A DNA stretch of 64,000 bases from Eledone cirrhosa. Taxonomy: Eukaryota. The position numbers and the translations under genes are program-made. Below the pieces are notes generated by a model. The model searched no databases. It saw nothing but the letters and a program-made list of their open reading frames with translations, and was not told the DNA's origin. Location: contig OZ024743.1 in assembly GCA_964016885.1 (NCBI GenBank), positions 303,490,001-303,554,000 on the forward strand, in the 5' to 3' direction. The first letter of the stretch is position 1. The number at the start of each line of letters is the position of its first letter. Below, piece after piece: positions 3,552 to 48,707 of the stretch.

Positions 3552-3613
<62 letters not shown>

Positions 3614-3898
3614 CAAATAACGAAACGAAATTAAATTTCGTTTCGCTTCTAACTCACTTTTGTATGACTGACGCTTAAACAATTAAGTTAAAGTGTACAT
3701 CTACATATGTATACGGAAGTATTAGTATGCATATAAATACACACATGTATACATATGTACATGTACTCAGCTTTTCACTAGACACTTTACAGTGAGTGTC
3801 AGCTAGTCTGTATGTAACCACACAGGCGGACCGGGTTTTAGAGTCATACGAGTTTTCAAGGAAACACATTTCCTCTATTCTCCAGAGGGCCAGACAGG

Positions 3899-3943
3899 AA
3901 TATTGGACTAGTTTCGATGTTATTACATCTCATCAGCAATATT
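3899..3943 (-). ncRNA. Type I hammerhead ribozyme (first copy; recurs every 469 bp on the minus strand in blocks 1 and 3)
   Basis: Minus strand reads AAUAUUG CUGAUGA GAUGU-AAUA-ACAUC GAAA CUAG UC CAAUAUU: 7-bp stem I, full catalytic core, 5-bp stem II, minimal palindromic stem III, GUC cleavage triplet. Confidence 0.92.
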
Positions 3944-6900
3944 TACCCATCTTCCGGCTTCTCTGGAGAATTGTAAAAGCACATATCGTTATATGCTTTT
4001 TCTATGAAAATTAGTAGTGGGTAGACCAATTTGCATAGAACGTGAGTCATTGTACGCACCGGTTCAGCGGAAACGATAAAAACAAATAACGAAACGAAAT
4101 TAAATTTCGTTTCGCTTCTAACTCACTTTTGTATGACTGACGCTTAAACAATTAAGTTAAAGTGTACATCTACATATGTATACGGAAGTATTAGTATGCA
4201 TATAAATACACACATGTATACATATGTACATGTACTCAGCTTTTCACTAGACACTTTACAGTGAGTGTCAGCTAGTCTGTATGTAACCACACAGGCGGAC
4301 CGGGTTTTAGAGTCATACGAGTTTTCAAGGAAACACATTTCCTCTATTCTCCAGAGGGCCAGACAGGAATATTGGACTAGTTTCGATGTTATTACATCTC
4401 ATCAGCAATATTTACCCATCTTCCGGCTTCTCTGGAGAATTGTAAAAGCACATATCGTTATATGCTTTTTCTATGAAAATAAGTAGTGGGTAGACCAATT
4501 TGCATAGAACGTGAGTCATTGTACGCACCGGTTCAGCGGAAACGATAAAAACAAATAACGAAACGAAATTAAATTTCGTTTCGCTTCTAACTCACTTTTG
4601 TATGACTGACGCTTAAACAATTAAGTTAAAGTGTACATCTACATATGTATACGGAAGTATTAGTATGCATATAAATACACACATGTATACATATGTACAT
4701 GTACTCAGCTTTTCACTAGACACTTTACAGTGAGTGTCAGCTAGTCTGTATGTAACCACACAGGCGGACCGGGTTTTAGAGTCATACGAGTTTTCAAGGA
4801 AACACATTTCCTCTATTCTCCAGAGGGCCAGCCAGGAATATTGGACTAGTTTCGATGTTATTACATCTCATCAGCAATATTTACCCATCTTCCGGCTTCT
4901 CTGGAGAATTGTAAAAGCACATATCGTTATATGCTTTTTCTATGAAAATTAGTAGTGGGTAGACCAATTTGCATAGAACGTGAGTCATTGTACGCACCGG
5001 TTCAGCGGAAACGATAAAAACAAATAACGAAACGAAATTAAATTTCGTTTCGCTTCTAACTCACTTTTGTATGACTGACGCTTAAACAATTAAGTTAAAG
5101 TGTACATCTACATATGTATACGGAAGTATTAGTATGCATATAAATACACACATGTATACATATGTACATGTACTCAGCTTTTCACTAGACACTTTACAGT
5201 GAGTGTCAGCTAGTCTGTATGTAACCACACAGGCGGACCGGGTTTTAGAGTCATACGAGTTTTCAAGGAAACACATTTCCTCTATTCTCCAGAGGGCCAG
5301 ACAGGAATATTGGACTAGTTTCGATGTTATTACATCTCATCAGCAATATTTACCCATCTTCCGGCTTCTCTGGAGAATTGTAAAAGCACATATCGTTATA
5401 TGCTTTTTCTATGAAAATTAGTAGTGGGTAGACCAATTTGCATAGAACGTGAGTCATTGTACGCACCGGTTCAGCGGAAACGATAAAAACAAATAACGAA
5501 ACGAAATTAAATTTCGTTTCGCTTCTAACTCACTTTTGTATGACTGACGCTTAAACAATTAAGTTAAAGTGTACATCTACATATGTATACGGAAGTATTA
5601 GTATGCATATAAATACACACATGTATACATATGTACATGTACTCAGCTTTTCACTAGACACTTTACAGTGAGTGTCAGCTAGTCTGTATGTAACCACACA
5701 GGCGGACCGGGTTTTAGAGTCATACGAGTTTTCAAGGAAACACATTTCCTCTATTCTCCAGAGGGCCAGACAGGAATATTGGACTAGTTTCGATGTTATT
5801 ACATCTCATCAGCAATATTTACCCATCTTCCGGCTTCTCTGGAGAATTGTAAAAGCACATATCGTTATATGCTTTTTCTATGAAAATTAGTAGTGGCTAG
5901 ACCAATTTGCATAGAACGTGAGTCATTGTACGCACCGGTTCAGCGGAAACGATAAAAACAAATAACGAAACGAAATTAAATTTCGTTTCGCTTCTAACTC
6001 ACTTTTGTATGACTGACGCTTAAACAATTAAGTTAAAGTGTACATCTACATATGTATACGGAAGTATTAGTATGCATATAAATACACACATGTATACATA
6101 TGTACATGTACTCAGCTTTTCACTAGACACTTTACAGTGAGTGTCAGCTAGTCTGTATGTAACCACACAGGCGGACCGGGTTTTAGAGTCATACGAGTTT
6201 TCAAGGAAACACATTTCCTCTATTCTCCAGAGGGCCAGACAGGAATATTGGACTAGTTTCGATGTTATTACATCTCATCAGCAATATTTACCCATCTTCC
6301 GGCTTCTCTGGAGAATTGTAAAAGCACATATCGTTATATGCTTTTTCTATGAAAATTAGTAGTGGGTAGACCAATTTGCATAGAACGTGAGTCATTGTAC
6401 GCACCGGTTCAGCGGAAACGATAAAAACAAATAACGAAACGAAATTAAATTTCGTTTCGCTTCTAACTCACTTTTGTATGACTGACGCTTAAACAATTAA
6501 GTTAAAGTGTACATCTACATATGTATACGGAAGTATTAGTATGCATATAAATACACACATGTATACATATGTACATGTACTCAGCTTTTCACTAGACACT
6601 TTACAGTGAGTGTCAGCTAGTCTGTATGTAACCACACAGGCGGACCGGGTTTTAGAGTCATACGAGTTTTCAAGGAAACACATTTCCTCTATTCTCCAGA
6701 GGGCCAGACAGGAATATTGGACTAGTTTCGATGTTATTACATCTCATCAGCAATATTTACCCATCTTCCGGCTTCTCTGGAGAATTGTAAAAGCAGATAT
6801 CGTTATATGCTTTTTCTATGAAAATTAGTAGTGGGTAGACCAATTTGCATAGAACGTGAGTCATTGTACGCACCGGTTCAGCGGAAACGATAAAAACAAA

Positions 6901-7459
6901 TAACGAAACGAAATTAAATTTCGTTTCGCTTCTAACTCACTTTTGTATGACTGACGCTTAAACAATTAAGTTAAAGTGTACATCTACATATGTATACGGA
7001 AGTATTAGTATGCATATAAATACACACATGTATACATATGTACATGTACTCAGCTTTTCACTAGACACTTTACAGTGAGTGTCAGCTAGTCTGTATGTAA
7101 CCACACAGGCGGACCGGGTTTTAGAGTCATACGAGTTTTCAAGGAAACACATTTCCTCTATTCTCCAGAGGGCCAGACAGGAATATTGGACTAGTTTCGA
7201 TGTTATTACATCTCATCAGCAATATTTACCCATCTTCCGGCTTCTCTGGAGAATTGTAAAAGCACATATCGTTATATGCTTTTTCTATGAAAACGAAATT
7301 TAATTTCGTTTCGTTATTTGTTTTTATCGTTTCCGCTGAACCGGTGCGTACAATGACTCACGTTCTATGCAAATTGGTCTACCCACTACTAATTTTCATA
7401 GAAAAAGCATATAACGATATGTGCTTTTACAATTCTCCAGAGAAGCCGGAAGATGGGTA

Positions 7460-7504
7460 AATATTGCTGATGAGATGTAATAACATCGAAACTAGTCCAA
7501 TATT
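7460..7504 (+). ncRNA. Type I hammerhead ribozyme (first plus-strand copy; recurs every 469 bp in blocks 2 and 4)
   Basis: aatattg ctgatga gatgt aata acatc gaaa ctag tc caatatt read directly on the + strand. Confidence 0.92.
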
Positions 7505-10500
7505 CCTGTCTGGCCCTCTGGAGAATAGAGGAAATGTGTTTCCTTGAAAACTCGTATGACTCTAAAACCCGGTCCGCCTGTGTGGTTACATACAGACTAG
7601 CTGACACTCACTGTAAAGTGTCTAGTGAAAAGCTGAGTACATGTACATATGTATACATGTGTGTATTTATATGCATACTAATACTTCCGTATACATATGT
7701 AGATGTACACTTTAACTTAATTGTTTAAGCGTCAGTCATACAAAAGTGAGTTAGAAGCGAAACGAAATTTAATTTCGTTTCGTTATTTGTTTTTATCGTT
7801 TCCGCTGAACCGGTGCGTACAATGACTCACGTTCTATGCAAATTGGTCTACCCACTACTAATTTTCATAGAAAAAGCATATAGCGATATGTGCTTTTACA
7901 ATTCTCCAGAGAAGCCGGAAGATGGGTAAATATTGCTGATGAGATGTAATAACATCGAAACTAGTCCAATATTCCTGTCTGGCCCTCTGGAGAATAGAGG
8001 AAATGTGTTTCCTTGAAAACTCGTATGACTCTAAAACCCGGTCCGCCTGTGTGGTTACATACAGACTAGCTGACACTCACTGTAAAGTGTCTAGTGAAAA
8101 GCTGAGTACATGTACATATGTATACATGTGTGTATTTATATGCATACTAATACTTCCGTATACATATGTAGATGTACACTTTAACTTAATTGTTTAAGCG
8201 TCAGTCATACAAAAGTGAGTTAGAAGCGAAACGAAATTTAATTTCGTTTCGTTATTTGTTTTTATCGTTTCCGCTGAACCGGTGCGTACAATGACTCACG
8301 TTCTATGCAAATTGGTCTACCCACTACTAATTTTCATAGAAAAAGCATATAACGATATGTGCTTTTACAATTCTCCAGAGAAGCCGGAAGATGGGTAAAT
8401 ATTGCTGATGAGATGTAATAACATCGAAACTAGTCCAATATTCCTGTCTGGCCCTCTGGAGAATAGAGGAAATGTGTTTCCTTGAAAACTCGTATGACTC
8501 TAAAACCCGGTCCGCCTGTGTGGTTACATACAGACTAGCTGACACTCACTGTAAAGTGTCTAGTGAAAAGCTGAGTACATGTACATATGTATACATGTGT
8601 GTATTTATATGCATACTAATACTTCCGTATACATATGTAGATGTACACTTTAACTTAATTGTTTAAGCGTCAGTCATACAAAAGTGAGTTAGAAGCGAAA
8701 CGAAATTTAATTTCGTTTCGTTATTTGTTTTTATCGTTTCCGCTGAACCGGTGCGTACAATGACTCACGTTCTATGCAAATTGGTCTACCCACTACTAAT
8801 TTTCATAGAAAAAGCATATAACGATATGTGCTTTTACAATTCTCCAGAGAAGCCGGAAGATGGGTAAATATTGCTGATGAGATGTAATAACATCGAAACT
8901 AGTCCAATATTCCTGTCTGGCCCTCTGGAGAATAGAGGAAATGTGTTTCCTTGAAAACTCGTATGACTCTAAAACCCGGTCCGCCTGTGTGGTTACATAC
9001 AGACTAGCTGACACTCACTGTAAAGTGTCTAGTGAAAAGCTGAGTACATGTACATATGTATACATGTGTGTATTTATATGCATACTAATACTTCCGTATA
9101 CATATGTAGATGTACACTTTAACTTAATTGTTTAAGCGTCAGTCATACAAAAGTGAGTTAGAAGCGAAACGAAATTTAATTTCGTTTCGTTATTTGTTTT
9201 TATCGTTTCCGCTGAACCGGTGCGTACAATGACTCACGTTCTATGCAAATTGGTCTACCCACTACTAATTTTCATAGAAAAAGCATATAACGATATGTGC
9301 TTTTACAATTCTCCAGAGAAGCCGGAAGATGGGTAAATATTGCTGATGAGATGTAATAACATCGAAACTAGTCCAATATTCCTGTCTGGCCCTCTGGAGA
9401 ATAGAGGAAATGTGTTTCCTTGAAAACTCGTATGACTCTAAAACCCGGTCCGCCTGTGTGGTTACATACAGACTAGCTGACACTCACTGTAAAGTGTCTA
9501 GTGAAAAGCTGAGTACATGTACATATGTATACATGTGTGTATTTATATGCATACTAATACTTCCGTATACATATGTAGATGTACACTTTAACTTAATTGT
9601 TTAAGCGTCAGTCATACAAAAGTGAGTTAGAAGCGAAACGAAATTTAATTTCGTTTCGTTATTTGTTTTTATCGTTTCCGCTGAACCGGTGCGTACAATG
9701 ACTCACGTTCTATGCAAATTGGTCTACCCACTACTAATTTTCATAGAAAAAGCATATAACGATATGTGCTTTTACAATTCTCCAGAGAAGCCGGAAGATG
9801 GGTAAATATTGCTGATGAGATGTAATAACATCGAAACTAGTCCAATATTCCTGTCTGGCCCTCTGGAGAATAGAGGAAATGTGTTTCCTTGAAAACTCGT
9901 ATGACTCTAAAACCCGGTCCGCCTGTGTGGTTACATACAGACTAGCTGACACTCACTGTAAAGTGTCTAGTGAAAAGCTGAGTACATGTACATATGTATA
10001 CATGTGTGTATTTATATGCATACTAATACTTCCGTATACATATGTAGATGTACACTTTAACTTAATTGTTTAAGCGTCAGTCATACAAAAGTGAGTTAGA
10101 AGCGAAACGAAATTTAATTTCGTTTCGTTATTTGTTTTTATCGTTTCCGCTGAACCGGTGCGTACAATGACTCACGTTCTATGCAAATTGGTCTACCCAC
10201 TACTAATTTTCATAGAAAAAGCATATAACGATATGTGCTTTTACAATTCTCCAGAGAAGCCGGAAGATGGGTAAATATTGCTGATGAGATGTAATAACAT
10301 CGAAACTAGTCCAATATTCCTGTCTGGCCCTCTGGAGAATAGAGGAAATGTGTTTCCTTGAAAACTCGTATGACTCTAAAACCCGGTCCGCCTGTGTGGT
10401 TACATACAGACTAGCTGACACTCACTGTAAAGTGTCTAGTGAAAAGCTGAGTACATGTACATATGTATACATGTGTGTATTTATATGCATACTAATACTT

Positions 10501-11978
10501 CCGTATACATATGTAGATGTACACTTTAACTTAATTGTTTAAGCGTCAGTCATACAAAAGTGAGTTAGAAGCGAAACGAAATTTAATTTCGTTTCGTTAT
10601 TTGTTTTTATCGTTTCCGCTGAACCGGTGCGTACAATGACTCACGTTCTATGCAAATTGGTCTACCCACTACTAATTTTCATAGAAAAAGCATATAACGA
10701 TATGTGCTTTTACAATTCTCCAGAGAAGCCGGAAGATGGGTAAATATTGCTGATGAGATGTAATAACATCGAAACTAGTCCAATATTCCTGTCTGGCCCT
10801 CTGGAGAATAGAGGAAATGTGTTTCCTTGAAAACTCGTATGACTCTAAAACCCGGTCCGCCTGTGTGGTTACATACAGACTAGCTGACACTCACTGTAAA
10901 GTGTCTAGTGAAAAGCTGAGTACATGTACATATGTATACATGTGTGTATTTATATGCATACTAATACTTCCGTATACATATGTAGATGTACACTTTAACT
11001 TAATTGTTTAAGCGTCAGTCATACAAAAGTGAGTTAGAAGCGAAACGAAATTTAATTTCGTTTCGTTATTTGTTTTTATCGTTTCCGCTGAACCGGTGCG
11101 TACAATGACTCACGTTCTATGCAAATTGGTCTACCCACTACTAATTTTCATAGAAAAAGCATATAACGATATGTGCTTTTACAATTCTCCAGAGAAGCCG
11201 GAAGATGGGTAAATATTGCTGATGAGATGTAATAACATCGAAACTAGTCCAATATTCCTGGCTGGCCCTCTGGAGAATAGAGGAAATGTGTTTCCTTGAA
11301 AACTCGTATGACTCTAAAACCCGGTCCGCCTGTGTGGTTACATACAGACTAGCTGACACTCACTGTAAAGTGTCTAGTGAAAAGCTGAGTACATGTACAT
11401 ATGTATACATGTGTGTATTTATATGCATACTAATACTTCCGTATACATATGTAGATGTACACTTTAACTTAATTGTTTAAGCGTCAGTCATACAAAAGTG
11501 AGTTAGAAGCGAAACGAAATTTAATTTCGTTTCGTTATTTGTTTTTATCGTTTCCGCTGAACCGGTGCGTACAATGACTCACGTTCTATGCAAATTGGTC
11601 TACCCACTACTTATTTTCATAGAAAAAGCATATAACGATATGTGCTTTTACAATTCTCCAGAGAAGCTGGAAGATGGGTAAATATTGCTGATGAGATGTA
11701 ATAACATCGAAACCAGTCCAATATTCCTGTCTGGCCCTCTGGAGAATAGAGGAAATGTGTTTCCTTGAAAACTCGTATGACTCTAAAACCCGGTCCGCCT
11801 GTGTGGTTACATACAGACTAGCTGACACTCACTGTAAAGTGTCTAGTGAAAAGCTGAGTACATGTACATATGTATACATGTGTGTATTTATATGCATACT
11901 AATACTTCCGTATACATATGTAGATGTACACTTTAACTTAATTGTTTAAGCGTCAGTCATACAAAAGTGAGTTAGAAG

Positions 11979-12003
11979 CGAAACGAAATTAAATTTCGTT
12001 TCG
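11979..12003. repeat. 25-bp palindrome at the centre of a roughly 6.4-kb inverted repeat
   Basis: cgaaacgaaat-taa-atttcgtttcg is present once per unit. Here both flanks are mirror images (gttagaag... / ...cttctaac). Confidence 0.95.
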
Positions 12004-15000
12004 CTTCTAACTCACTTTTGTATGACTGACGCTTAAACAATTAAGTTAAAGTGTACATCTACATATGTATACGGAAGTATTAGTATGCATATAAATACAC
12101 ACATGTATACATATGTACATGTACTCAGCTTTTCACTAGACACTTTACAGTGAGTGTCAGCTAGTCTGTATGTAACCACACAGGCGGACCGGGTTTTAGA
12201 GTCATACGAGTTTTCAAGGAAACACATTTCCTCTATTCTCCAGAGGGCCAGACAGGAATATTGGACTAGTTTCGATGTTATTACATCTCATCAGCAATAT
12301 TTACCCATCTTCCGGCTTCTCTGGAGAATTGTAAAAGCACATATCGTTATATGCTTTTTCTATGAAAATATGTAGTGGGTAGACCAATTTGCATAGAACG
12401 TGAGTCATTGTACGCACCGGTTCAGCGGAAACGATAAAAACAAATAACGAAACGAAATTAAATTTCGTTTCGCTTCTAACTCACTTTTGTATGACTGACG
12501 CTTAAACAATTAAGTTAAAGTGTACATCTACATATGTATACGGAAGTATTAGTATGCATATAAATACACACATGTATACATATGTACATGTACTCAGCTT
12601 TTCACTAGACACTTTACAGTGAGTGTCAGCTAGTCTGTATGTAACCACACAGGCGGACCGGGTTTTAGAGTCATACGAGTTTTCAAGGAAACACATTTCC
12701 TCTATTCTCCAGAGGGCCAGCCAGGAATATTGGACTAGTTTCGATGTTATTACATCTCATCAGCAATATTTACCCATCTTCCGGCTTCTCTGGAGAATTG
12801 TAAAAGCACATATCGTTATATGCTTTTTCTATGAAAATTAGTAGTGGGTAGACCAATTTGCATAGAACGTGAGTCATTGTACGCACCGGTTCAGCGGAAA
12901 CGATAAAAACAAATAACGAAACGAAATTAAATTTCGTTTCGCTTCTAACTCACTTTTGTATGACTGACGCTTAAACAATTAAGTTAAAGTGTACATCTAC
13001 ATATGTATACGGAAGTATTAGTATGCATATAAATACACACATGTATACATATGTACATGTACTCAGCTTTTCACTAGACACTTTACAGTGAGTGTCAGCT
13101 AGTCTGTATGTAACCACACAGGCGGACCGGGTTTTAGAGTCATACGAGTTTTCAAGGAAACACATTTCCTCTATTCTCCAGAGGGCCAGACAGGAATATT
13201 GGACTAGTTTCGATGTTATTACATCTCATCAGCAATATTTACCCATCTTCCGGCTTCTCTGGAGAATTGTAAAAGCACATATCGTTATATGCTTTTTCTA
13301 TGAAAATTAGTAGTGGGTAGACCAATTTGCATAGAACGTGAGTCATTGTACGCACCGGTTCAGCGGAAACGATAAAAACAAATAACGAAACGAAATTAAA
13401 TTTCGTTTCGCTTCTAACTCACTTTTGTATGACTGACGCTTAAACAATTAAGTTAAAGTGTACATCTACATATGTATACGGAAGTATTAGTATGCATATA
13501 AATACACACATGTATACATATGTACATGTACTCAGCTTTTCACTAGACACTTTACAGTGAGTGTCAGCTAGTCTGTATGTAACCACACAGGCGGACCGGG
13601 TTTTAGAGTCATACGAGTTTTCAAGGAAACACATTTCCTCTATTCTCCAGAGGGCCAGACAGGAATATTGGACTAGTTTCGATGTTATTACATCTCATCA
13701 GCAATATTTACCCATCTTCCGGCTTCTCTGGAGAATTGTAAAAGCACATATCGTTATATGCTTTTTCTATGAAAATTAGTAGTGGGTAGACCAATTTGCA
13801 TAGAACGTGAGTCATTGTACGCACCGGTTCAGCGGAAACGATAAAAACAAATAACGAAACGAAATTAAATTTCGTTTCGCTTCTAACTCACTTTTGTATG
13901 ACTGACGCTTAAACAATTAAGTTAAAGTGTACATCTACATATGTATACGGAAGTATTAGTATGCATATAAATACACACATGTATACATATGTACATGTAC
14001 TCAGCTTTTCACTAGACACTTTACAGTGAGTGTCAGCTAGTCTGTATGTAACCACACAGGCGGACCGGGTTTTAGAGTCATACGAGTTTTCAAGGAAACA
14101 CATTTCCTCTATTCTCCAGAGGGCCAGACAGGAATATTGGACTAGTTTCGATGTTATTACATCTCATCAGCAATATTTACCCATCTTCCGGCTTCTCTGG
14201 AGAATTGTAAAAGCACATATCGTTATATGCTTTTTCTATGAAAATTAGTAGTGGGTAGACCAATTTGCATAGAACGTGAGTCATTGTACGCACCGGTTCA
14301 GCGGAAACGATAAAAACAAATAACGAAACGAAATTAAATTTCGTTTCGCTTCTAACTCACTTTTGTATGACTGACGCTTAAACAATTAAGTTAAAGTGTA
14401 CATCTACATATGTATACGGAAGTATTAGTATGCATATAAATACACACATGTATACATATGTACATGTACTCAGCTTTTCACTAGACACTTTACAGTGAGT
14501 GTCAGCTAGTCTGTATGTAACCACACAGGCGGACCGGGTTTTAGAGTCATACGAGTTTTCAAGGAAACACATTTCCTCTATTCTCCAGAGGGCCAGACAG
14601 GAATATTGGACTAGTTTCGATGTTATTACATCTCATCAGCAATATTTACCCATCTTCCGGCTTCTCTGGAGAATTGTAAAAGCACATATCGTTATATGCT
14701 TTTTCTATGAAAATTAGTAGTGGGTAGACCAATTTGCATAGAACGTGAGTCATTGTACGCACCGGTTCAGCGGAAACGATAAAAACAAATAACGAAACGA
14801 AATTAAATTTCGTTTCGCTTCTAACTCACTTTTGTATGACTGACGCTTAAACAATTAAGTTAAAGTGTACATCTACATATGTATACGGAAGTATTAGTAT
14901 GCATATAAATACACACATGTATACATATGTACATGTACTCAGCTTTTCACTAGACACTTTACAGTGAGTGTCAGCTAGTCTGTATGTAACCACACAGGCG

Positions 15001-17956
15001 GACCGGGTTTTAGAGTCATACGAGTTTTCAAGGAAACACATTTCCTCTATTCTCCAGAGGGCCAGACAGGAATATTGGACTAGTTTCGATGTTATTACAT
15101 CTCATCAGCAATATTTACCCATCTTCCGGCTTCTCTGGAGAATTGTAAAAGCACATATCGTTATATGCTTTTTCTATGAAAACGAAATTTAATTTCGTTT
15201 CGTTATTTGTTTTTATCGTTTCCGCTGAACCGGTGCGTACAATGACTCACGTTCTATGCAAATTGGTCTACCCACTACTAATTTTCATAGAAAAAGCATA
15301 TAACGATATGTGCTTTTACAATTCTCCAGAGAAGCCGGAAGATGGGTAAATATTGCTGATGAGATGTAATAACATCGAAACTAGTCCAATATTCCTGTCT
15401 GGCCCTCTGGAGAATAGAGGAAATGTGTTTCCTTGAAAACTCGTATGACTCTAAAACCCGGTCCGCCTGTGTGGTTACATACAGACTAGCTGACACTCAC
15501 TGTAAAGTGTCTAGTGAAAAGCTGAGTACATGTACATATGTATACATGTGTGTATTTATATGCATACTAATACTTCCGTATACATATGTAGATGTACACT
15601 TTAACTTAATTGTTTAAGCGTCAGTCATACAAAAGTGAGTTAGAAGCGAAACGAAATTTAATTTCGTTTCGTTATTTGTTTTTATCGTTTCCGCTGAACC
15701 GGTGCGTACAATGACTCACGTTCTATGCAAATTGGTCTACCCACTACTAATTTTCATAGAAAAAGCATATAACGATATGTGCTTTTACAATTCTCCAGAG
15801 AAGCCGGAAGATGGGTAAATATTGCTGATGAGATGTAATAACATCGAAACTAGTCCAATATTCCTGTCTGGCCCTCTGGAGAATAGAGGAAATGTGTTTC
15901 CTTGAAAACTCGTATGACTCTAAAACCCGGTCCGCCTGTGTGGTTACATACAGACTAGCTGACACTCACTGTAAAGTGTCTAGTGAAAAGCTGAGTACAT
16001 GTACATATGTATACATGTGTGTATTTATATGCATACTAATACTTCCGTATACATATGTAGATGTACACTTTAACTTAATTGTTTAAGCGTCAGTCATACA
16101 AAAGTGAGTTAGAAGCGAAACGAAATTTAATTTCGTTTCGTTATTTGTTTTTATCGTTTCCGCTGAACCGGTGCGTACAATGACTCACGTTCTATGCAAA
16201 TTGGTCTACCCACTACTAATTTTCATAGAAAAAGCATATAACGATATGTGCTTTTACAATTCTCCAGAGAAGCCGGAAGATGGGTAAATATTGCTGATGA
16301 GATGTAATAACATCGAAACTAGTCCAATATTCCTGTCTGGCCCTCTGGAGAATAGAGGAAATGTGTTTCCTTGAAAACTCGTATGACTCTAAAACCCGGT
16401 CCGCCTGTGTGGTTACATACAGACTAGCTGACACTCACTGTAAAGTGTCTAGTGAAAAGCTGAGTACATGTACATATGTATACATGTGTGTATTTATATG
16501 CATACTAATACTTCCGTATACATATGTAGATGTACACTTTAACTTAATTGTTTAAGCGTCAGTCATACAAAAGTGAGTTAGAAGCGAAACGAAATTTAAT
16601 TTCGTTTCGTTATTTGTTTTTATCGTTTCCGCTGAACCGGTGCGTACAATGACTCACGTTCTATGCAAATTGGTCTAGCCACTACTAATTTTCATAGAAA
16701 AAGCATATAACGATATGTGCTTTTACAATTCTCCAGAGAAGCCGGAAGATGGGTAAATATTGCTGATGAGATGTAATAACATCGAAACTAGTCCAATATT
16801 CCTGTCTGGCCCTCTGGAGAATAGAGGAAATGTGTTTCCTTGAAAACTCGTATGACTCTAAAACCCGGTCCGCCTGTGTGGTTACATACAGACTAGCTGA
16901 CACTCACTGTAAAGTGTCTAGTGAAAAGCTGAGTACATGTACATATGTATACATGTGTGTATTTATATGCATACTAATACTTCCGTATACATATGTAGAT
17001 GTACACTTTAACTTAATTGTTTAAGCGTCAGTCATACAAAAGTGAGTTAGAAGCGAAACGAAATTTAATTTCGTTTCGTTATTTGTTTTTATCGTTTCCG
17101 CTGAACCGGTGCGTACAATGACTCACGTTCTATGCAAATTGGTCTACCCACTACTAATTTTCATAGAAAAAGCATATAACGATATGTGCTTTTACAATTC
17201 TCCAGAGAAGCCGGAAGATGGGTAAATATTGCTGATGAGATGTAATAACATCGAAACTAGTCCAATATTCCTGGCTGGCCCTCTGGAGAATAGAGGAAAT
17301 GTGTTTCCTTGAAAACTCGTATGACTCTAAAACCCGGTCCGCCTGTGTGGTTACATACAGACTAGCTGACACTCACTGTAAAGTGTCTAGTGAAAAGCTG
17401 AGTACATGTACATATGTATACATGTGTGTATTTATATGCATACTAATACTTCCGTATACATATGTAGATGTACACTTTAACTTAATTGTTTAAGCGTCAG
17501 TCATACAAAAGTGAGTTAGAAGCGAAACGAAATTTAATTTCATTTCGTTATTTGTTTTTATCGCTTCCGCTGAACCGGTGCGTACAATGACTCACGTTCT
17601 ATGCAAATTGGTCTACCCACTACTAATTTTCATAGAAAAAGCATATAACGATATGTGCTTTTACAATTCTCCAGAGAAGCCGGAAGATGGGTAAATATTG
17701 CTGATGAGATGTAATAACATCGAAACTAGTCCAATATTCCTGTCTGGCCCTCTGGAGAATAGAGGAAATGTGTTTCCTTGAAAACTCGTATGACTCTAAA
17801 ACCCGGTCCGCCTGTGTGGTTACATACAGACTAGCTGACACTCACTGTAAAGTGTCTAGTGAAAAGCTGAGTACATGTACATATGTATACATGTGTGTAT
17901 TTATATGCATACTAATACTTCCGTATACATATGTAGATGTACACTTTAACTTAATT

Positions 17957-18051
<95 letters not shown>

Positions 18052-18299: not shown

Positions 18300-19880
18300 T
18301 CTCATTTTTGAGAGATTGCTGATATCACGAATAATACACCTCCTTGAATCTGCTGAACTCCAGCCATCATGAGTTTTGTGGTGGCAGGAACTGCCTGTGG
18401 TAGTTTCTGCATTACATCGATGACATCCTAAATTATTTGAGAGATGGCACCAACGAGGATGTAATTTACTTTGATTTCAGCAAGGCATTTGACAGAGTGG
18501 ATCATCGCCAGATTCCAGCAGGTTGTGCTCAAAGGAAAATGATTAAGATCAGCCAAGATCAGTAGTAGAGTCCCACAAGGCAGTTTGGTTCCATATAATT
18601 TCATTATTTATAACAATGACGGTGGATTGGCAGTGGAAAAGACGGTGGAAAGGGCGGTGGATTGGCAGTATCGGTAGAGGGTCGGACGCCATGCTTTGAC
18701 GTATAGAGTTACGGCCCTTGCCATTCTGAGTTCAAATCCCGCCGAGGTTAACTTTGCCTTTCATCCTTACGGAGTCGATAAAATAAAGTACCAGTAATGC
18801 ACTGGGTAATTGCTGGCCTTGTGCCAAATGTAGAAACAATTATTTATAACAATGACATTATCGACGTCGTCAAGCACAGCAAGATAAATATTTTCGCAAA
18901 TAGTTGCAATCTCCAGACGGATCTCAATGGAGTGGGAGCCGGATATGCCTTCAATTGGATGCGCATGCTGTTATCCTATGGGCATAGGACAAATAATAAT
19001 ATTATGTTAAATTAGGATACATCTGATTTAATCTATTTTTGAAAAGATGATGCTTTGAAATTACCAAATTATATTCCCTCAGATGAAACCCTCGAATCAT
19101 CAAACAACCCCAGGTACCTTGGAACACTGTAACAACATCAGAGACCTTGTAGATTACAATATTAGCTGAAGTACTAATATAAACACCAATGTTGACTCGG
19201 ACTGTAGGATATCTGTCTGGATTTTCAGAGCCTTCCGTACTAGAGAGATTCGCAGCATTTTCCCACTCTACTCTACCTGCTCCCGGCCTCACCTGGAATA
19301 AAATTGTTCATTATGGTCTCCATACACAAAATAAAGTATTATGAATATTGAAGCATTTCAGTGGTCAACGACAAGGAAGATAGACGTTATACCCCGCCCT
19401 AACTAGTGGGGTTATTTATATTCCCAGACTCTACTCACTGCAATGCTGCCATTAACACTACATCGTCTGTATATTGTGCAAAACATTCTCTCAATATTGC
19501 CAAACTCATGTTGTCATCTACTATAATATCCATCCATGACTTGATCCCCGTGCTACCGATCCAATAGAAAAATAAGATAAGCATCTCATAGCAAGTATAC
19601 CACACAACTACTTCACCTCAGCTCGCCCCACTATCTTTAATATGATAGCAAAATATATCAAGAGAGAAACAGATTCCAAAATATTAAAAAAAGTATCCTG
19701 GACGAATGTGTGCAGGAAATCCCAGATAGAAGCATTACACACGGATATATCTCTGAAAACAACAACAAATATTTACTAGATTGGACGATGGTGAACAAAA
19801 CATGAAGTAGTCGTGAACTCATGATCAGAAAAACTTCGCTGGGTGGTGCTATTAATTCAGACATGGCCAGGGCGAACAGT
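18300..19880 (+). mobile_element. Highly decayed CR1/L2-type LINE reverse transcriptase remnant
   Basis: DVIYFDFSKAFDRVDH at about 18458-18505 and a VPQGS-like motif at about 18570. Many stops and frameshifts; boundaries approximate. Confidence 0.65.
18621..18838 (+). mobile_element. tRNA-derived SINE with 18-bp TSD, inserted in the LINE relic
   Basis: A-box-like tggcagtatcgg and B-box-like gagttcaaatcc. TSD attatttataacaatgac at 18603-18620 and 18839-18856. Homologous copies at 43.5 kb and 62 kb. Confidence 0.85.
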
Positions 19881-20283: not shown

Positions 20284-22048
20284 TCGGATCAGTAATCACT
20301 CCTCTACTAATTTCCTTAGAAGACTAAATAATGCGCATGTGTTATGAGAGAGAAATCGCACATGGTATCGTGTGTCGACCGGGTCAAATAGAACGTAAAC
20401 TACTATAAAATAGCAACCAGATCCATTCAATATATTAAATCTCTGCAAAAGAGAAGGAGCTCAATTTATCAGTTTTCCACAAATAATTTCATTTGTCGAG
20501 ATTTGAGAGACTGAATCTGAACATGAAATTACAATATTAACTTCAACCAAAATTATAACTTGTATTTATAAAAGATAGAATGCAAGAATTTACATTAATA
20601 ATCTCAATTATTTTCTAGTATACGCATGAAAAATACAGAGAAGTAGCTCTGATGAGTATTCAAGGCTGCTTATTTAATTGTATGCATCAGGAAAGATCAA
20701 GTGTCCTCGCAACATCACATGCACAACAGAATTATACATCAGTTATCAATTTCTTTTTGCAATTAGGTAAATCGATGTATATTAAATCTATAAAAATTGA
20801 ACAGAAATGTTAAATCTAGCGAATGTAAATTAATTCGTAAATTTCATCTTTGCATATATAGCTGAAGTAGAACTGTTTTAATGCTATTTCGAATCATAAT
20901 TATACAGTAACGCTTAAAAGATTCAAGTAGAACTTTAATTAAAATCCTGCAAATTCACATCATTCATAATCTTCAGCAGCAAATATATATTTGTAATCAG
21001 CAGAGGTGGATAATATCGTCGTTATGTATTGTGTCTTAGTGTCATTTTTACAAATATCTCTTTTCTATATAATTCAATGAGCACGGAATTCCTTACTTCT
21101 TGTATGATCTTAGGTTCTATTCATTTATTTTCTTTGATGAGATTCTGAACAGACGCACATTTAGAACTGATCAAAATCAGTGAGTGAACACACCTTCAAT
21201 ATATCTTTGTTTATTATCTATCTAATACAGCTTGTTACTCCTTTCAATTTCCTACAACTTTTCCAAATGTTGAAATACTTATTATACTACATTTGACTTT
21301 GGTAGTTGGTTGGTGTTCAGAAGATATCATTCAGCTAATAAGCACTATTTAGGATTTAACTGACAATTATGATGACCCGCAAAACGTAACTGCTCTCTGT
21401 CTAAAGTATATAGAAAGCAATGGTCTTAGGATGATGCAATTTGGTGAGTACATTGAAGACTTTTCAGACGCCAATTATAGAATGAAAAGCTTATTGTAAG
21501 TATTGTGTGATGCATAACTATGTATAACTTACTGTTCTTAGTTTAGATGTAGTTTTTCATTGACAGATGTATTTAATCATACTTCGGTGGAGGTCTTATG
21601 TTTTGACCTAGGGTTTTAGTACTTGCATCCCAAACAATAACCTGTCAGCACATTTATATATAAAATATATCATTTATATACCCACAAATCTAACCCCAGT
21701 CGTGTATATACACAAATATAAAAACATCTGAAACTGTTATGGGTTAAAAATGTTAATTCCAAATAAACATTGTAAAAGACACATGAGTAAAACAGAATAG
21801 CGCAAGTTTTCTCTACAAAACACTTCCAGTATCGCAGAAAAAAATCGTTCGTTCTAAAATGTCAAGTTGAGATGTCTAAAAAGCGAAACTATCTATTACA
21901 TTTAAACTTTCAATAAAAGGTAACATTTTCTGTAAATATCACTGACATAAACGTTCTGATATCGCTATTGTCCAGAGAAAGGGAAATGAAACCCGTATGA
22001 TTAACGTCCATAACAAACGTTTCTATAACATGAATAACAATACTTAAG

Positions 22049-22612
22049 AGCAACGATGGTTGCCAAACACTGTACAGCTAAGAATCCTGGCTGTTTGTTT
22101 ACAAACAAACCGAGCATAACAATAAATGTTCTGTAAACCCATACGTACATATATAAATATGTGTGTGCATGTATGTATGTATATATATACTACTGTACGT
22201 CTGTATACATATATGTACGTATACATACTTATAAGTATCAGCCGTACTAAGAGTGAGAAATGAAATTTCATTTTTTCCATTTATCGTTTTCGGTACACCC
22301 GGCCGACTAACTCACTCAATATAAAAAATTAGGCTGCTCAACCGTTAATATGCATATGACAGGAAGGTATACGGTGCTGATGACAGCTAATAAGCTAGAA
22401 ACTAGTTCATCGTTCATTTGTCAGTATTGAACAAAGGGGCAACGATGGTTGCCGAATACTGTACGGCTAATAATCCGGGCTGTTTGTTTAAAACAAACCG
22501 AGCATTATAATAAATGTTCGGTAATTCCATACGTGCATATATATATGTGTGCATGTATGTATGTATATACATACTACTGTACGTCTGTATACATATATGT
22601 ATGTACGTATTT
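22049..22612 (+). repeat. Diverged tandem repeat of about 390 bp (about 1.5 units) related to the 469-bp unit
   Basis: gcaacgatggttgcc...ctgtatacatatatgta occurs at about 22050 and 22439. The segment 22235-22310 resembles the array's gtgag...gaaacgaaattt...tttatcgtttccg...ccgg region. Confidence 0.7.
22371..22413 (+). ncRNA. Type I hammerhead ribozyme (diverged relative of the array ribozyme)
   Basis: acggtg ctgatga cagct aata agcta gaaa ctag tt catcgt: same AAUA loop II and CUAG stem III, different but paired stems I and II, GUU triplet. Confidence 0.8.
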
Positions 22613-25470
22613 AAATACGTAAGGCATAACACACAATATGGAGACAAGAAAACTAACTAAAATTTGAAAGGTAATTACATTTAGTTTCTCAATGTTATAT
22701 AAACACACCCAATTTCTATCTGTATATACATCTATCTACATATATGTTTCTCTCAATGTGGGAAATTGATATAAACAGAACAATATTCTCAATTGTTGAG
22801 AAATAATTTCTTATTTATAGTTGGATTCATGCAATTGAATCTTAACGGCTCATATCTAAGTTCTTCAGAAATATATAAGTAATGATTCAACCGTAAACAG
22901 ATATTTTCATTCTAAACATACATATTCAATTATTTTTAAAACATGAATGGAAATAAGGCTACATATATGTATATCCGTATTCATGTATGTATCAAGGTGG
23001 GTATGCATATATGTGTGTACACATGTATGTATGTATATTTATGAATATATATGTTTGTAAGTATTTATGTATCTATTTGTGTATGTATGTACATCAGATC
23101 AACGATAATCTCACTGTTATTAAAATTCTGAATGCTGGTTGCTAGAATATAAGAACGGTTCTTGATCCTACAACCGTGGGATGACCGGAGATGAGATCAT
23201 CTCATGTATCCAATGAGCTACGTCCTTATAACCAGGAAGTTGTTTACTTGTCAAAAATGTCTTTGTTTGATGAGAATCACAAAACGGAATGCACTATTGT
23301 CTACACCTCTTTGGAAACGGTGGGTGAATCGAATAAGAAGAGATCCTTGCGTGGCTTTTGCAGGTATATAGGGATTTATAGACAGTCTTGGTGAATTTGC
23401 ATTGCGTATAAACGACCATTTATTTATATTAAGTTATCAACTGCAAAAGGTAAATAGTTGATGTTTTTTTAGTCTATAGGTTCCAATACTATCTGCTTCT
23501 TAAGATGATAAATTATACTTCTATCAAGCTTTAAAATATGTATTACGCAGTATTTTCATTGTGTGTAAGGTTGTCATCGTTGGCTAATGTAATGCTAGTG
23601 TAGGTAATGTCCATGAAAGATGGTGAGTGATTGCTAGGCCTTGTACTGTGCATTGCAAAATTAAAGCACAAAGTTTGCTACAAATGTGTATAGTGAACAG
23701 TATGTCCCAGCAAAATGATAGATGTGAAACCGTCTAGATGCACCCAAGACGTAAAGAGTGTCATATTATGTGATATTCTCGGCTATGTGAAAAAACATTA
23801 AAGTTGGTTCAGTGCGAATGAAAAGGAGATGGAAAACATTTTGCAAGAGATGACAAATAATCTGTTGAGCATTCTTAAAAAGAGAAATGGCATGGAATCA
23901 AGAAGGCTTCGTGAAATGATTGTGATTTTTCGTAGCAAGGATGGAAATGAGTTCGTCTGGATTCTGCTCGGTGTTCTAAGAAGACAGCAACAGCGTGATG
24001 AAAGAGTATGTATGGATGAGTGCCGTTGTCCCAACTGCATGTCTTTTGGAGAACAGAGCAGTGGAAAGCGTCCGCTTATAAAACCAGGAAGCGATATAAT
24101 GACTTCATTAATGTTTCACACAATCACGCTTACATCGATGGAGCAAGATGTTTCGCTGATGCCTGCGATAGATGTAAATAGAGAAATATGATTAATCAAA
24201 GCAATATTACTTTCAAGTTTTCTAGGGAACATAATAAGTAATTCAAACGGGATGTCAGAAAGGTTCTTGCTGTCAGATCACCACAAAAACTTTATGATAT
24301 GTATAATTTATCATTTAGAAATTAATATGCAAAATCCGCACCAATCGGACAGTTAAAAATAGTCATCTTTGCAGTCTTGAAAATAGAGCTCCCTGCCGAT
24401 TACTAAATTGCCAGGGTCGGAAATACAACATAAAAAAACCAGTTTCAAAAAATGCGGGTCAGCTGGCGACCGCGAAAGACCCATTAAAGACTAAAATGTG
24501 CTTCATGACAGCCATATTGACATACTGAGAGCCATTTACACCTGCAAAATAGCGTGAGTATGGTCTAAAATACAACATTCATTTGCAATATCCACACTTA
24601 CTCGATCACGGGGTGGCTATTATCATGTATGTATGTATCTATTTATTTATGTATGTATATATGAATGTAGTGTCCAACGTTCTTTTCACGAAACAGTTAT
24701 GCGTTCTACCTCTCTGACCTATAGAAGCTCAAATGGATGTTGCTTATTGATACATTAAATATCATAGTAAAGGCGTTATCCTGGAGGATATCAACAAAGA
24801 TGTTCTGAAAACCATACCATATCAAGGATCTTATTCTTTCGGAAGGAGAATTCCATCCCAATAGAATTAGGAGGTCGTTTCAGGGATCCAGGTTGCCATT
24901 ATTATCCGGGGCTATATATGTAATGACAAACATATCGCAATGATCTCTGTAATTCAAATGTTTCGAAAAAAGAAACATGGATCTGTCGCTGAATATAAAT
25001 TGTATCTGCTGCAGAAAGTATCACTGCTTACTACTTCCTACATGAAGGTCTGAAAATTATAGCCCGCGAAGATTGTGATAATGTCTGACTTTGCCGTCAC
25101 TTCAGAATACCCTTCCTACCCAAGCTGTAATGGAAATTCATCAGTACATAAGCCACGCTTAATTTTCTCGTCGAGAACATCACGTAGTGAAGGAGGACTG
25201 CTCCTCATGTAAGATGGAAACCAAAAGTATCTAACAAGCATTTGTGTTGCACGCATCAAAGACCACGATGCAAAGAGAGCCGCTAACCAACAAGGTAACA
25301 GTCGACCATGGATGTTCGGTTATCAGTTAGTCACCACTATTAGGTTGCTAGTTGGAGCGGAAAAGTGACTGATGATTATGTTCACGCAATTCTGTCAAAA
25401 TGTTATCGCACTTGATTGCATTCCATATGCGCTGGTGAGATTGGAGGTCCACGGGATAGTGGTGTTAGCT

Positions 25471-30720: not shown

Positions 30721-30723
<3 letters not shown>

Positions 30724-33700
30724 AGAGTATTGGAGTTTGCTTGAAGCATTGGGGAATAATAAGTAAATATCTTTGAGTCGTTTGGAAGCCTCGACAATGC
30801 AAATGGGTAGATCTCCGGGTAACAAGATCCGGTGGTGGAGAGAGAGATGGAAGAGGGTGTACGTTGAATGCGTGGTGAGTATAAGATGTGTAAGATGTGT
30901 AGAAGAAAGAAGGGAAGAGTATAAAGGATAAAATTAAAATAACAACGCAAGAGCGAGTTACCTTGGGAGAGATTTAATAGTCCCTATATATTTCGGATTC
31001 ACATCCATCAACTGGGGTTTTTTTCCGGGGTGGGGGAAAGGTTGTCTGTCGGACAGGTGCGAAACGCGTCCTCCGCTGTTTGTTATTTTGAACATCTGAG
31101 GTATTCGGCAGAGCGCGCGTGCGCGTGAAATGGGGTCGGTCGGGCAGAGGTCAGCGGCCGAATGAGGGAGTGGGCTGGCGCTAGCTGTCAGTACATTCTC
31201 TGCATGTTTGTTAAATGTTACTGTGTGCGTGTGCGTGTGTTGTTGTCTCGCTTGAGTGTGTGTGTGTGTGCGTGTGTTGTTGCCTTGTTCCTCTGTATTG
31301 GCAGTGTAGTATGTTCGTATGGTGGAATGCTACTGTGTGTGTGTGCGTGTGCGTAGTTGTCTCATTTGGGTGTGTGTGTGTGTGCGTGTGTTGTGTGTTG
31401 CTGCATCGTTTGTTAACTTAAACCAGCCATCTCATTTCGCTTCTCTCGGATCGGTTGTTTATTTGCGGTTGCAGGCGTTTGATAAAAAGCGCTTCCTTGA
31501 TACGTAACGTGCCGACGTTTCTTTCAGTCGCTAGAATTGTGACAATGGGCCTTCCGTCTTTGTTTCCCCATGTTTCTATGTGTTTCCAGAAAGACGAGGC
31601 CCTGGATTTAGTGTGTTCCTTGATACGGATGTGCAAAGGTCGGATTGTGCTACCTATCTAGTATTGGTTGCACCTGTCACATTCTATCTTATACACGACG
31701 TATGTTCGTAGGCAACAGTTCGCATGGCGTATCGGGCAGTCTCTGAGGGAGCATGCGTCAGTAGATTTCCCGAGTTTCCTGGAAAGGAATCTTCGCAGGG
31801 AGGGGCCCGAGTGGGCCAGGTTGTTGTCGAGGACCTCCCTCCGTATAGCCTTGCGGATAGCCTTGTTGGTATTCTCGCCCAGGTGTGGCATTTTAAGGAA
31901 GCACTTACCTTGGGTGCCTCTCTGTCTCGTGTGTCCGGTGTCTCCTATTCTGCCTGTGATCGAGGTAGGGTACCCGTTCGTCTCCAGCACCTCGAGGAAT
32001 CGCTTCGTATGAGTGACACCACTCGCGGGATCGCTGCATCTGTTTTTGATTCGCGCGATATCGTTCGTGATGTATCCTCTTTTGGCACTGTTAGGGAGGG
32101 CGCACTTGTAGTGAACGAACAGGTCCCTGCAGGCTGCCTTTCGGTAGAAGTTGCAGTGGATCCTTCCCTGTTCCGTGATGTTGATTCGGAAGTCGAGGAG
32201 GGCAAGTGACTCGTCTTCGTTGGGGTGTTCAACACTGAAGTCAATGTTCTCGTCCGTGTTGTTGAACGTCTCATAGGGAAAAGAATTCTGCGTCATTAGC
32301 AGAGAGGCCTACAACACCTTGACGATGACAACCTCTACTCCAAGGTCACGGGAATCACTCCCGAGCAGATAGAAAAGCACATCAACGCCGCCTGGACCAA
32401 CATCTGCGACCGGCGGAACCTCCCGAAGAAGCTGAGATACAACCTCCTCACGAGGAACAGCAGACTACCCGCCTTCTACCACCTCGTGAAAACACACAAA
32501 CAGGGACCCGACCTGAAGATCAGGCCCATCGTATCGAAAGTGGGGGACCACTCTACGAAATGTCATGGCTCCTAGCCAGAATACTCAAACCCATCTTAGA
32601 CACCTTGCCGGGACACGTTAACAGTTCCGAGGAGGTGTTGAAGCGCTTGCATCAAATGGATCCTGACACCAGAAGGAATAACAGATATGCCTTCAGCCTT
32701 GATGTAGTCGCTCTCTACACCTCGGTCCCGGCACTCCCGGCCGTCAATATACTGATGGAACGCGTCCATCCACCGACCTACACTGCTTCGGGCTCACCAC
32801 CACTGACATCCACCAACTCCTATCCATCGTCGTCGACAACATCTACTTCGGATTCCTTGACCAAACATACCAACAAACCTCGGGATTGCCCACGGGATCA
32901 AGCCTATCAGGTGTGCTAGCGATCTCTTACATGGACAACCTCGAACGCAAGGCTCTCAACGCCTGCCATCCCCAACGCCGTAGCCTTTTTCTCAAGGTAC
33001 GTGGACGATATCCTCATCGGCACATCTTCCCAAGACACGGTGAACAGAATCTATGAGACGTTCAACTACACGGACGAGAACATTGACTTCAGTGTTGAAT
33101 ACCCCAAAGAAAACCTGTCACTTGCCCTCCTCGACTTCCGAATCAACATCACGGAACATGGAAGGATCCACTGCAACTTCTACCGAAAGGCAGCCTACAG
33201 GGACCTGTTCGTTCACTACAAGTCCGCCCTCACTAACAGTGCCAAAGAGGATACATCACGAACGAGATCGCGCGAATCAAAAACAGATGCAGCGATCCCG
33301 CGAGTGGTGTCACTCATGCAAGCGATTCCTCGAGGTGCTGGAAACGAACGGGTACCCTACCTCGATCACAGACAGAATAGGAGATATCAGACACAGAGAG
33401 GCACCCAAGGTAAGTGCTTCCTTAAAATGCCACACCTGGGCGAGAATACCACAAACGCTATCCGCAAGGCTATACGGAGGGATGGCTTCGACATCCACCT
33501 GGCCCACTCGGGCCCCTCCCTGCGAAGATGCCTCTCCAGGAAACCCGGGAAATCTACTGACGCATGCTCCCTCAGAGACTGCCCGATACTCCATGCGAAC
33601 TGTTGCCTACGCACATACGTGGTGTATAAGATAGAATGTGACAGGTGCAACCAATACTACATAGGTAGCACAATCCGACATTTGCACATCCGGATAAAGG

Positions 33701-34550
33701 AACACACTAAAACCAGGGCCTCATCTTTCTGGAAACACATAGAAAAATGCGGAAACAATGACGATAGGCCCATTGTCACAATTCTAGCGACTGAAAGAAA
33801 CGTCGGCACGTTACGTATCAAGGAAGTGCTTTTTATCAAACCCCTGCAACCACAAATAAACAACCGATCAGAGAGAAGCGAAATGAGATGGCTGGTTTAA
33901 GTTAACAAACGATGCAGCAACACACAACACACGCACACACACACACACAAACGATACAACTACACACACACACACGCACACACATACAGAAGCATTCCAC
34001 CATACGAACATACTACACTGCCAATACAGAGGAACAAGGCAACAACACACGCACACACACACTCAAACGAGACAACAACACACGCACACACACACACAGT
34101 AACATTTAACCAACAGGCAGAGAATGGACTGACAGCTAGCGCCACTCCACTCCCTCATTCATCCGCTGACCTCTGCCCGCCGACGCCGTTTCACGCGCAC
34201 GCGGGCTCTGCCGAATACCTCAGATATTCAAAACAACAAACAGCGGAGGACGCGTTTCGCACCTGTCCGGCAGACAACCTTTCCCCCACCCCGGAAAAAA
34301 AACCCAGTTGATGGATGTGAATCAGAAATATATAGGGACTATTAAATCTCTCCCAAGGTTGTGTTGTTATTTTAATTTTATGCTTTATACCCTTCCCTTC
34401 ATTCTTCTACATATCTTACACATCTTATACACACCACTCATCTCAACGTACATCCACTTACATCTCTCTCTCCACCACCGGATCTTGTTACCCGGAGATT
34501 TACCCATTTGCGTTGTCGAGGCTTCCAAACGACTTAAATATATTTACTTA
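30721..34550 (+). mobile_element. Penelope-like element, 5'-truncated, with a 1.5-kb inverted copy of its 3' half
   Basis: RT motifs LKIRPIVS, FSLDVVALYTSVP and YVDDI; GIY-YIG VVYKIECDRCNQYYIGST..L..RIKEH. About 30760-32276 is the reverse complement of about 33051-34550. (TA)n on both sides. Confidence 0.9.
32277..33900 (+). pseudogene. Frameshifted PLE RT plus GIY-YIG endonuclease ORF
   Basis: ORF pieces 32560-32919 and 33001-33900 carry consecutive RT and EN motifs in different frames. Confidence 0.85.
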
Positions 34551-34659
34551 TATATATATATATATATGTGTGTGCGTGTAAAAGTTATTTTTAAATTGTT
34601 GGGATACAACAAGCAAATCTTTTTAGAACTAGGAATATATTATGGTTCGCTCCATCTTT

Positions 34660-48704: not shown

Positions 48705-48707
48705 TTT

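What the first reader, a model, noticed from the sequence alone, without database searches (positions are those of the whole stretch)
21950..22620. An older, diverged member of the same ribozyme-repeat family 4 kb downstream shows covariation
Seen: the hammerhead at 22371-22413 keeps CUGAUGA, loop AAUA, GAAA and CUAG. Stem I (acggtg/catcgt) and stem II (agct/agct) have different sequences that still pair. Upstream, gagtgagaaatgaaatttcatttt...tttatcgttttcggtacacccgg parallels the array's hairpin region in the same order, and the element repeats at about 390 bp. Inference: compensatory change supports real ribozyme function, and the hairpin-plus-TTTATCGTTT module may be a conserved cis element of a multi-subfamily system.
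Basis: partly seen in the sequence, partly recalled or inferred. Interest (0 to 1): 0.72.

Follow-up and report, generated by a model that had tools for sequence, protein, structure and literature searches.

The report
Decayed sister-family hammerhead retrozyme copy
This is an aged, probably crippled copy of a small self-cutting RNA repeat that is distantly related to the young repeat array next to it; such repeats are a known kind of mobile element in animal genomes.

Summary
The element is real and related to the 469-bp array (A). B spans about 22047-22614, not from 21950. It is 1.46 units of a 389-bp repeat with a single type I hammerhead. Five of 12 stem I/II pairs change on both sides and still pair (neutral simulation P 6e-5 to 7e-3), which points to past selection on the fold. 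The hammerhead stems fold with probability 0.22 or less, against 0.6-1.0 in A, so this copy is probably impaired. B is a sister lineage, not an old A copy. TTTATCGTTT is no more conserved than background (P=0.89), and covariation outside the ribozyme is borderline at best. This is a new member of the known non-LTR retrozymes. One lead remains: A's and B's ends fall around the hairpin module, as a Penelope 'tail' would, but three ends are not significant (P=0.11).

The parts
22047..22614 (+). Element B: 1.46 units of a 389-bp, 35% GC repeat, 5'-truncated partial tandem, one hammerhead
   Evidence: 3' end uncertain by about 4-10 nt
22050..22438 (+). One full 389-bp unit of B, collinear with the 469-bp array unit
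   Evidence: 264 of 378 aligned columns identical, 480 columns in all
22439..22614 (+). Second, partial unit of B
   Evidence: 89% identical to 22050-22221 over 172 columns
22357..22423 (+). Extended type I hammerhead with possible distal helix I; GGUA 22366-22369 sits at the same distance from the core as in the array
   Evidence: Rfam HH9 19.7 bits, E=0.0063 in a 111-nt search, below the gathering score of 52
22371..22413 (+). Stem I, core, stem II and helix III; C·A at 10.1-11.1 (22384/22397); palindromic ACUAGU 22401-22406; predicted cut after U17 at 22407
22141..22222 (+). AT-rich long hairpin (repeated at 22529-22610), positionally matching the array's AT-rich hairpin; low complexity
   Evidence: microsatellites elsewhere also score against the array's version
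22225..22317 (+). Module homologous to the array's hairpin region: palindrome 22225-22238, stem 22251-22257/22311-22317 enclosing palindrome 22258-22273, TTTATCGTTT 22280-22289 and a small CGG/CCG hairpin
   Evidence: special conservation not shown
3607..17960 (.). Relative A: young 469-bp hammerhead array, four blocks of alternating orientation, 31 hammerhead cores, both outer ends in (TA)n

Best explanation
B is an older, partly decayed genomic copy of a non-autonomous non-LTR retrozyme, from a sister family of the young 469-bp array. Likely life cycle of the family (inferred from published work, not shown here): tandem units are transcribed; canonical type I hammerheads with a one-to-two-pair palindromic helix III cut the RNA into unit lengths, best as dimers; units are circularised by a host ligase; a Penelope-like element's reverse transcriptase and GIY-YIG endonuclease nick AT-rich DNA and copy the RNA back as a 5'-truncated partial tandem. 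The A and B lineages diverged while both needed a folding ribozyme, which left five compensatory pairs. After insertion B decayed (its two copies now differ by about 11%). With one hammerhead, C·A at 10.1-11.1, U17 and a competing hairpin, this copy probably cleaves poorly and cannot release a unit-length RNA by itself. Shown: homology, anatomy, covariation count, relative age, predicted misfolding. Inferred: cleavage, circular RNA, Penelope dependence, loss of activity.
For: Collinear alignment over the whole unit. With hammerhead and AT-rich stretch removed, the upstream part beats 1000 of 1000 dinucleotide shuffles and 1388 of 1388 genomic windows in 3 of 4 scoring schemes; nhmmer E=9.2e-4. 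5 both-side changes in 12 stem pairs: not reached in 5000 column permutations, neutral simulation P=6.5e-5 at 30% and 6.7e-3 at 50% substitution. Helix sizes and palindromic loop 3 match the definition of canonical metazoan type I hammerheads, where G10.1-C11.1 is called highly conserved (PMC4209133 passages). Unit size and low GC fit non-LTR retrozymes (PMC7229834). Circular monomers fold better than shuffles (A z=-10.1, B z=-3.7, 60 shuffles each). Stem probabilities 0.61-1.0 in A, 0.00-0.22 in B. Penelope-type elements are present in the window, one with inverted arms, (TA)n targets and a one-sided tail, like array A.
Against: No activity or expression data. Only two lineages are available. 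The tool's own shuffle gives 17 of 500 for covariation. In the strictest scoring scheme the upstream match is weak (7 of 1000 shuffles, 14 of 1388 windows) and its reverse-complement control does as well (6 of 1000). The post-hammerhead part is weak, with no nhmmer hit. No base pair with p>0.5 is shared in register between the A and B circle folds (0 of 103). A natural axolotl hammerhead with a U·U mismatch at the base of helix II still cleaves (22% in one hour), and GUU is listed as cleavable (PMC3138052 passage), so B need not be dead. The window's Penelope elements share no sequence with A or B.
Confidence: 0.72

Rival explanations
1. B is a solo or partial pseudo-LTR of an autonomous Penelope-like element, 5'-truncated, rather than an independent retrozyme; array A arose from a related pLTR.
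For: Partial tandems and 5' truncation are typical of PLEs (Craig et al. passages). 24 of 57 Xenopus retrozyme families match known elements, 21 of those 22 elements being PLEs, at their pLTRs (bioRxiv 10.64898/2026.07.22.740005). B has one hammerhead, so it fails that paper's definition of an active retrozyme.
Against: The 389-bp repeat is head-to-tail with no ORF of 100 codons or more within it. The ribozyme is canonical, whereas metazoan PLE hammerheads are mostly minimal. It is collinear with a unit that forms a 30-copy array. No homology to either PLE in the window.
Confidence: 0.13
2. B's ribozyme is an active variant; C·A and U17 are fixed subfamily features, and it cleaves as a dimer in trans or with protein help.
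For: All core boxes, loop AAUA, upstream GGUA and the ACUAGU palindrome are intact. A mismatch at the base of helix II is tolerated in axolotl. A PLE hammerhead needed its protein to cleave (PMC11167929).
Against: Forcing the hammerhead fold costs 4.2-5.8 kcal/mol in B against 2.8 in A. B's copies have decayed by about 11%, enough for one or two hits in the ribozyme (inference). Only 1 of 9 predicted Xenopus dimers cleaved in vitro.
Confidence: 0.1
3. The likeness is convergent or composition-driven: any canonical type I hammerhead shares these letters, and the rest is AT-rich noise; or the paired changes came from template switching in DNA hairpins without selection.
For: The unrelated Rfam HH9 consensus also has a UA bulge and an A-rich loop 2, so those letters are not family marks. 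Microsatellites reach similar scores when the AT-rich stretch is left in.
Against: The match holds with both removed, order and spacing are kept over the unit, and stem I's arms are 31 nt apart around an unchanged core.
Confidence: 0.05

Closest known systems
Metazoan non-LTR retrozymes (Cervera and de la Peña 2020, PMC7229834; mussel 350-390 bp, axolotl Rtz331/Rtz353)
   Same: Short low-GC tandem repeat with a canonical type I hammerhead and weak palindromic helix III; two related families in one genome, as in axolotl; self-paired circular fold.
   Different: B has one hammerhead and 1.46 units; expression and cleavage untested; A's 469-bp unit is above the 150-450 bp range quoted there, though within the 51-972 bp of Li et al. 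2026.
Penelope-like element pLTRs and tails (Craig et al. 2021, PMC8557442; Frangieh et al. 2024, PMC11167929)
   Same: Partial tandem, 5' truncation, AT-rich target; relative A shows inverted blocks, (TA)n flanks and two different 3' ends.
   Different: No ORF; canonical rather than minimal hammerhead; A's end difference is about 70 nt, not 30-40; no sequence link to a PLE found.
Rfam Hammerhead_HH9 (RF02275)
   Same: Best Rfam hammerhead match for both A and B; same helix layout.
   Different: Both are below the gathering score (31.8 and 19.7 against 52); helix III is shorter. It works like HH9 but is not a member.

Membership tests
Canonical type I hammerhead | Core boxes CUGANGA, GAAA, UH | tested here: met
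   22377-22383, 22398-22401, 22406-22407; H is U
Canonical type I hammerhead | Helix I about 6 bp; helix III 1-2 bp with palindromic loop (PMC4209133) | tested here: met
   6 pairs in stem I, ACUAGU palindrome
Canonical type I hammerhead | Helix II closed by the conserved G10.1-C11.1 pair | tested here: not met
   C·A in B, G-C in A
Canonical type I hammerhead | Loop 1/loop 2 tertiary contact | tested here: inconclusive
   GGUA and AAUA kept at the same spacing in A and B and in line with the HH9 consensus; contact not modelled
Canonical type I hammerhead | Self-cleavage | not testable with these tools
   Folding predicts poor formation in B
Non-LTR retrozyme | Short tandem unit of a few hundred bp, GC below 45-50%, non-coding | tested here: met
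   389 bp, 35% GC, no ORF of 100 codons or more
Non-LTR retrozyme | Two or more consecutive units with a complete hammerhead (criterion for an active copy, Li et al. 2026) | tested here: not met
   One hammerhead in B; met by relative A. B is filed as a remnant, not an active retrozyme
Non-LTR retrozyme | Dispersed copies across the genome | not testable with these tools
   No eukaryotic genome collection; no other copy in the window; no match in prokaryotic genomes
Non-LTR retrozyme | Linear and circular monomer RNA | not testable with these tools
   No RNA data
Same family as array A | At least 80% identity over 80% of length (90% clustering in Li et al. 2026) | tested here: not met
   70% of aligned columns, 55% of all columns: related sister family
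Penelope-like element pLTR | Adjacent RT plus GIY-YIG ORF | tested here: not met
   None within B; nearest GIY-YIG ORF about 10 kb away and unrelated in sequence
Penelope-mobilised insertion | Fixed internal 3' ends with an optional tail, AT-rich target | tested here: inconclusive
   Ends at A+210 to 214 (B), A+229 and A+299; P=0.11 for three ends

The most novel reading that the evidence does not exclude
The hairpin module shared by A and B is the cis signal at which a Penelope-type reverse transcriptase binds and starts internally. A's two outer ends (229 and about 299 nt past the cut site) bracket the palindrome like a 70-nt Penelope tail, the array folds back at that palindrome, and B ends within about 20 nt of the first site. 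This would be insertion-structure evidence that canonical-hammerhead retrozymes are copied by Penelope proteins, and it would name the signal. I did not find this described for retrozymes in searches or in the sections read.
Probability: 0.3. Interest if true: 0.6.

Novelty: new member of a known kind. Interest (0 to 1): 0.3.

Why it matters
As it stands it is a modest datum: two sister retrozyme families in one locus, with compensatory changes of a kind already reported for genomic hammerheads (PMC4209133). It would matter more if the shared module proves to be the Penelope initiation signal. The enzyme that mobilises animal retrozymes is inferred only from co-occurrence and pLTR homology, and this pair gives a defined RNA region and predicted start sites to test.

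Tried and rejected
Rfam at gathering threshold: no hit in the window. In a 6-kb E-value search B had no hammerhead hit, and the microRNA-family hits are AT-repeat artefacts. First alignment control gave genomic windows as high as the module; the high scorers printed were microsatellites matching A's AT-rich stretch, so the test was redone without it. A third relative at 21940-22049: rejected. Other CUGANGA...GAAA candidates outside the array (7 besides B, such as 20649, 38992, 41845): none passes the structural scan. Conserved whole-unit structure: similar hairpin order by eye, but 0 of 103 pairs shared in register, covariation P 0.03-0.16, and RNAalifold's 3 double changes in 21 pairs rest on a different alignment register. 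TTTATCGTTT as a special motif: rejected. Free cofolding of two hammerheads did not give the double-hammerhead helix III in either A or B; the constrained version crashed, so dimer formation is untested. Helitron 3' end (hairpin plus CTAG): rejected because the element does not end there. Target-site duplication: only a possible TTAA, too weak to claim. Scan of prokaryotic genomes with the hammerhead pattern: 0 matches. Two protein searches to name the host gave no close named relative. Lünse et al. 2016 was not held.

Full report
Setting. The window is AT-rich DNA full of microsatellites, LINE and Penelope-type ORFs, so an animal genome. It reminds me of octopus DNA, but that is recalled and comes from no call; two protein searches named no close host. 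Array A (3607-17960) holds 469-bp units in four blocks of alternating orientation with 31 hammerhead cores. The finding, here called B, lies 4 kb downstream.

What is there. B runs from about 22047 to 22614: one full 389-bp unit plus 0.46 of a second, 89% identical over 172 columns, 35% GC. B has one hammerhead. It is the only hit outside the array among 32 hits of a structural type I scan, and 30 shuffles gave none. Rfam scores it 19.7 bits against HH9 (E=0.0063 in a 111-nt search; no hit in a 6-kb search), the array's 31.8, both below the gathering score of 52.

Homology outside the ribozyme. The units align collinearly, 264 of 378 aligned columns and 480 columns in all. A first control was confounded by microsatellites matching A's AT-rich stretch. 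With the hammerhead and that stretch removed, 22233-22370 beat 1000 of 1000 dinucleotide shuffles and 1388 of 1388 genomic windows in 3 of 4 scoring schemes (z 8.1-10.5). In the fourth, 7 of 1000 shuffles and 14 of 1388 windows matched it, and so did the reverse-complement control. nhmmer gave E=9.2e-4. The part after the hammerhead is weak (copy 1: 1 to 26 of 1000 shuffles; copy 2: 0 to 963; no nhmmer hit).

Covariation. Of 14 pairs in helices I-III, 7 are unchanged, 5 change on both sides and still pair (one as G-U), and 2 are broken in B. That tool's shuffle gives 17 of 500, close to the floor for two sequences. Permuting B's letters among columns never reached 5 in 5000 trials, and neutral mutation of A's 12 stem pairs reached 5 with P=6.5e-5 at 30% substitution and 6.7e-3 at 50%, near the stems' own rate. 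So the fold was under selection while A and B diverged. This is one contrast between two lineages. Loop AAUA and the upstream UA are general type I features also seen in the HH9 consensus, not family marks.

Is this copy active? Position 17 is U, not C. Both letters fall in a competing hairpin over GAAA. Stem probabilities are 0.00-0.22 in B and 0.61-1.0 in A over three flank lengths. With a one-to-two-pair palindromic helix III such ribozymes work best as dimers, and B has no second copy. Against this, an axolotl hammerhead with a U·U base in helix II cleaves 22% in an hour, and GUU is listed as cleavable (PMC3138052, passages). I judge B impaired; this is not shown.

Age and family. 27 full A units differ from a reference unit by 0.56 bases on average (3 more run off block ends and were left out), so B is the older insertion. 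In 186 ungapped three-way columns, both B copies share a base against A in 56, one copy alone differs in 17, all differ in 9. Most A/B difference predates the insertion: B is a sister family, not a worn A copy.

The proposed cis element. The module is homologous and both versions fold with a palindromic hairpin inside a GUGAG/CUCAC stem. But identity there (0.55-0.62 per column) is no higher than in the rest of the unit, a 10-nt exact run is expected (P=0.89), and covariation outside the ribozyme has P 0.03-0.16 over three alignments, with 0 of 103 confident pairs shared in register. A positional clue remains. A's outer ends are both 3' ends in (TA)n, at +229 and about +299 from the cut site, bracketing the palindrome (+261 to +285); the array folds back at that palindrome; B ends at the equivalent of +210 to +214. 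A Penelope protein starts reverse transcription at two internal sites downstream of its hammerhead, which yields the one-sided tail (PMC11167929, parts 1-2 of 4). A Penelope insertion at 30722-34555 in this window shows that pattern: inverted arms 92% identical, (TA)n flanks and a tail of about 39 nt at one end. Three ends within 90 of 469 nt has P=0.11, and AT microhomology could also place them, so this is a lead only. No PLE in the window shares the module.

Comparison with what is known. B fits metazoan non-LTR retrozymes: tandem units of 150-450 bp, low GC, type I hammerhead, expressed as circles, with two families in axolotl and 350-390 bp units in mussel (PMC7229834, passages and parts 2-3 of 6). 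Li et al. 2026 (bioRxiv 10.64898/2026.07.22.740005, parts 1-3 of 5) link them to PLE pLTRs and define active copies by two consecutive hammerheads, which B lacks. Hammerhead families 'full of covariations' within one genome were reported in 2014. Also read as passages: Craig et al. 2021, PMC6155905, PMC6765202, and an octopus repeat annotation whose main text has no occurrence of 'ribozyme' (PMC13282606). Searches found no paper on cephalopod retrozymes, which bears only if the host guess is right.

Verdict. Observation mostly right with material omissions; interpretation partly supported. A decayed member of a sister family of a known element class. Interest 0.3; the Penelope-initiation reading has probability about 0.3 and would deserve about 0.6.

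Noticed in passing
window 3607-17960: Array A folds back at the centre of its palindrome (about 11990) and has two identical head-to-head junctions (7291, 15180); both outer ends are 3' ends in (TA)n, about 70 nt apart in unit position. A variant at unit position 49 recurs near the 3' end of all four blocks. Real Penelope-type inversion or assembly fold-back is not settled.
   Followed up: partly
window 30722-34555: Penelope-type insertion, RT plus C-terminal GIY-YIG, ORF broken; inverted arms 92% identical, (TA)n flanks, tail of about 39 nt at the left end; no hammerhead in the scan.
   Followed up: partly
window 56540-58500 (-): Second Penelope-type fragment with a CX4CxxC linker before GIY-YIG, Neptune-like.
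   Followed up: partly
window 34595-35300: AT-rich ORF fragment that reads like another GIY-YIG end by eye; no Pfam hit for 34595-35101.
   Followed up: no
window 46437-49757 (-) and 51056-54481 (+): Two LINE-type RT ORFs; the second is an open 1141-codon frame.
   Followed up: partly
window 22604-22621: Perfect 18-bp palindrome at B's 3' end; could be a short fold-back at insertion or chance in AT-rich DNA.
   Followed up: no
window 11681-11725: One array hammerhead, next to the fold-back, has a change that breaks the helix III palindrome.
   Followed up: no
window 18400-19400: By eye, decayed LINE pieces and a SINE-like stretch near 18700-18830 between A and B; labels are recalled, not tested.
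   Followed up: no
window 49861-50519: Two-copy 333-bp tandem repeat, 94% matches, no hammerhead core.
   Followed up: no
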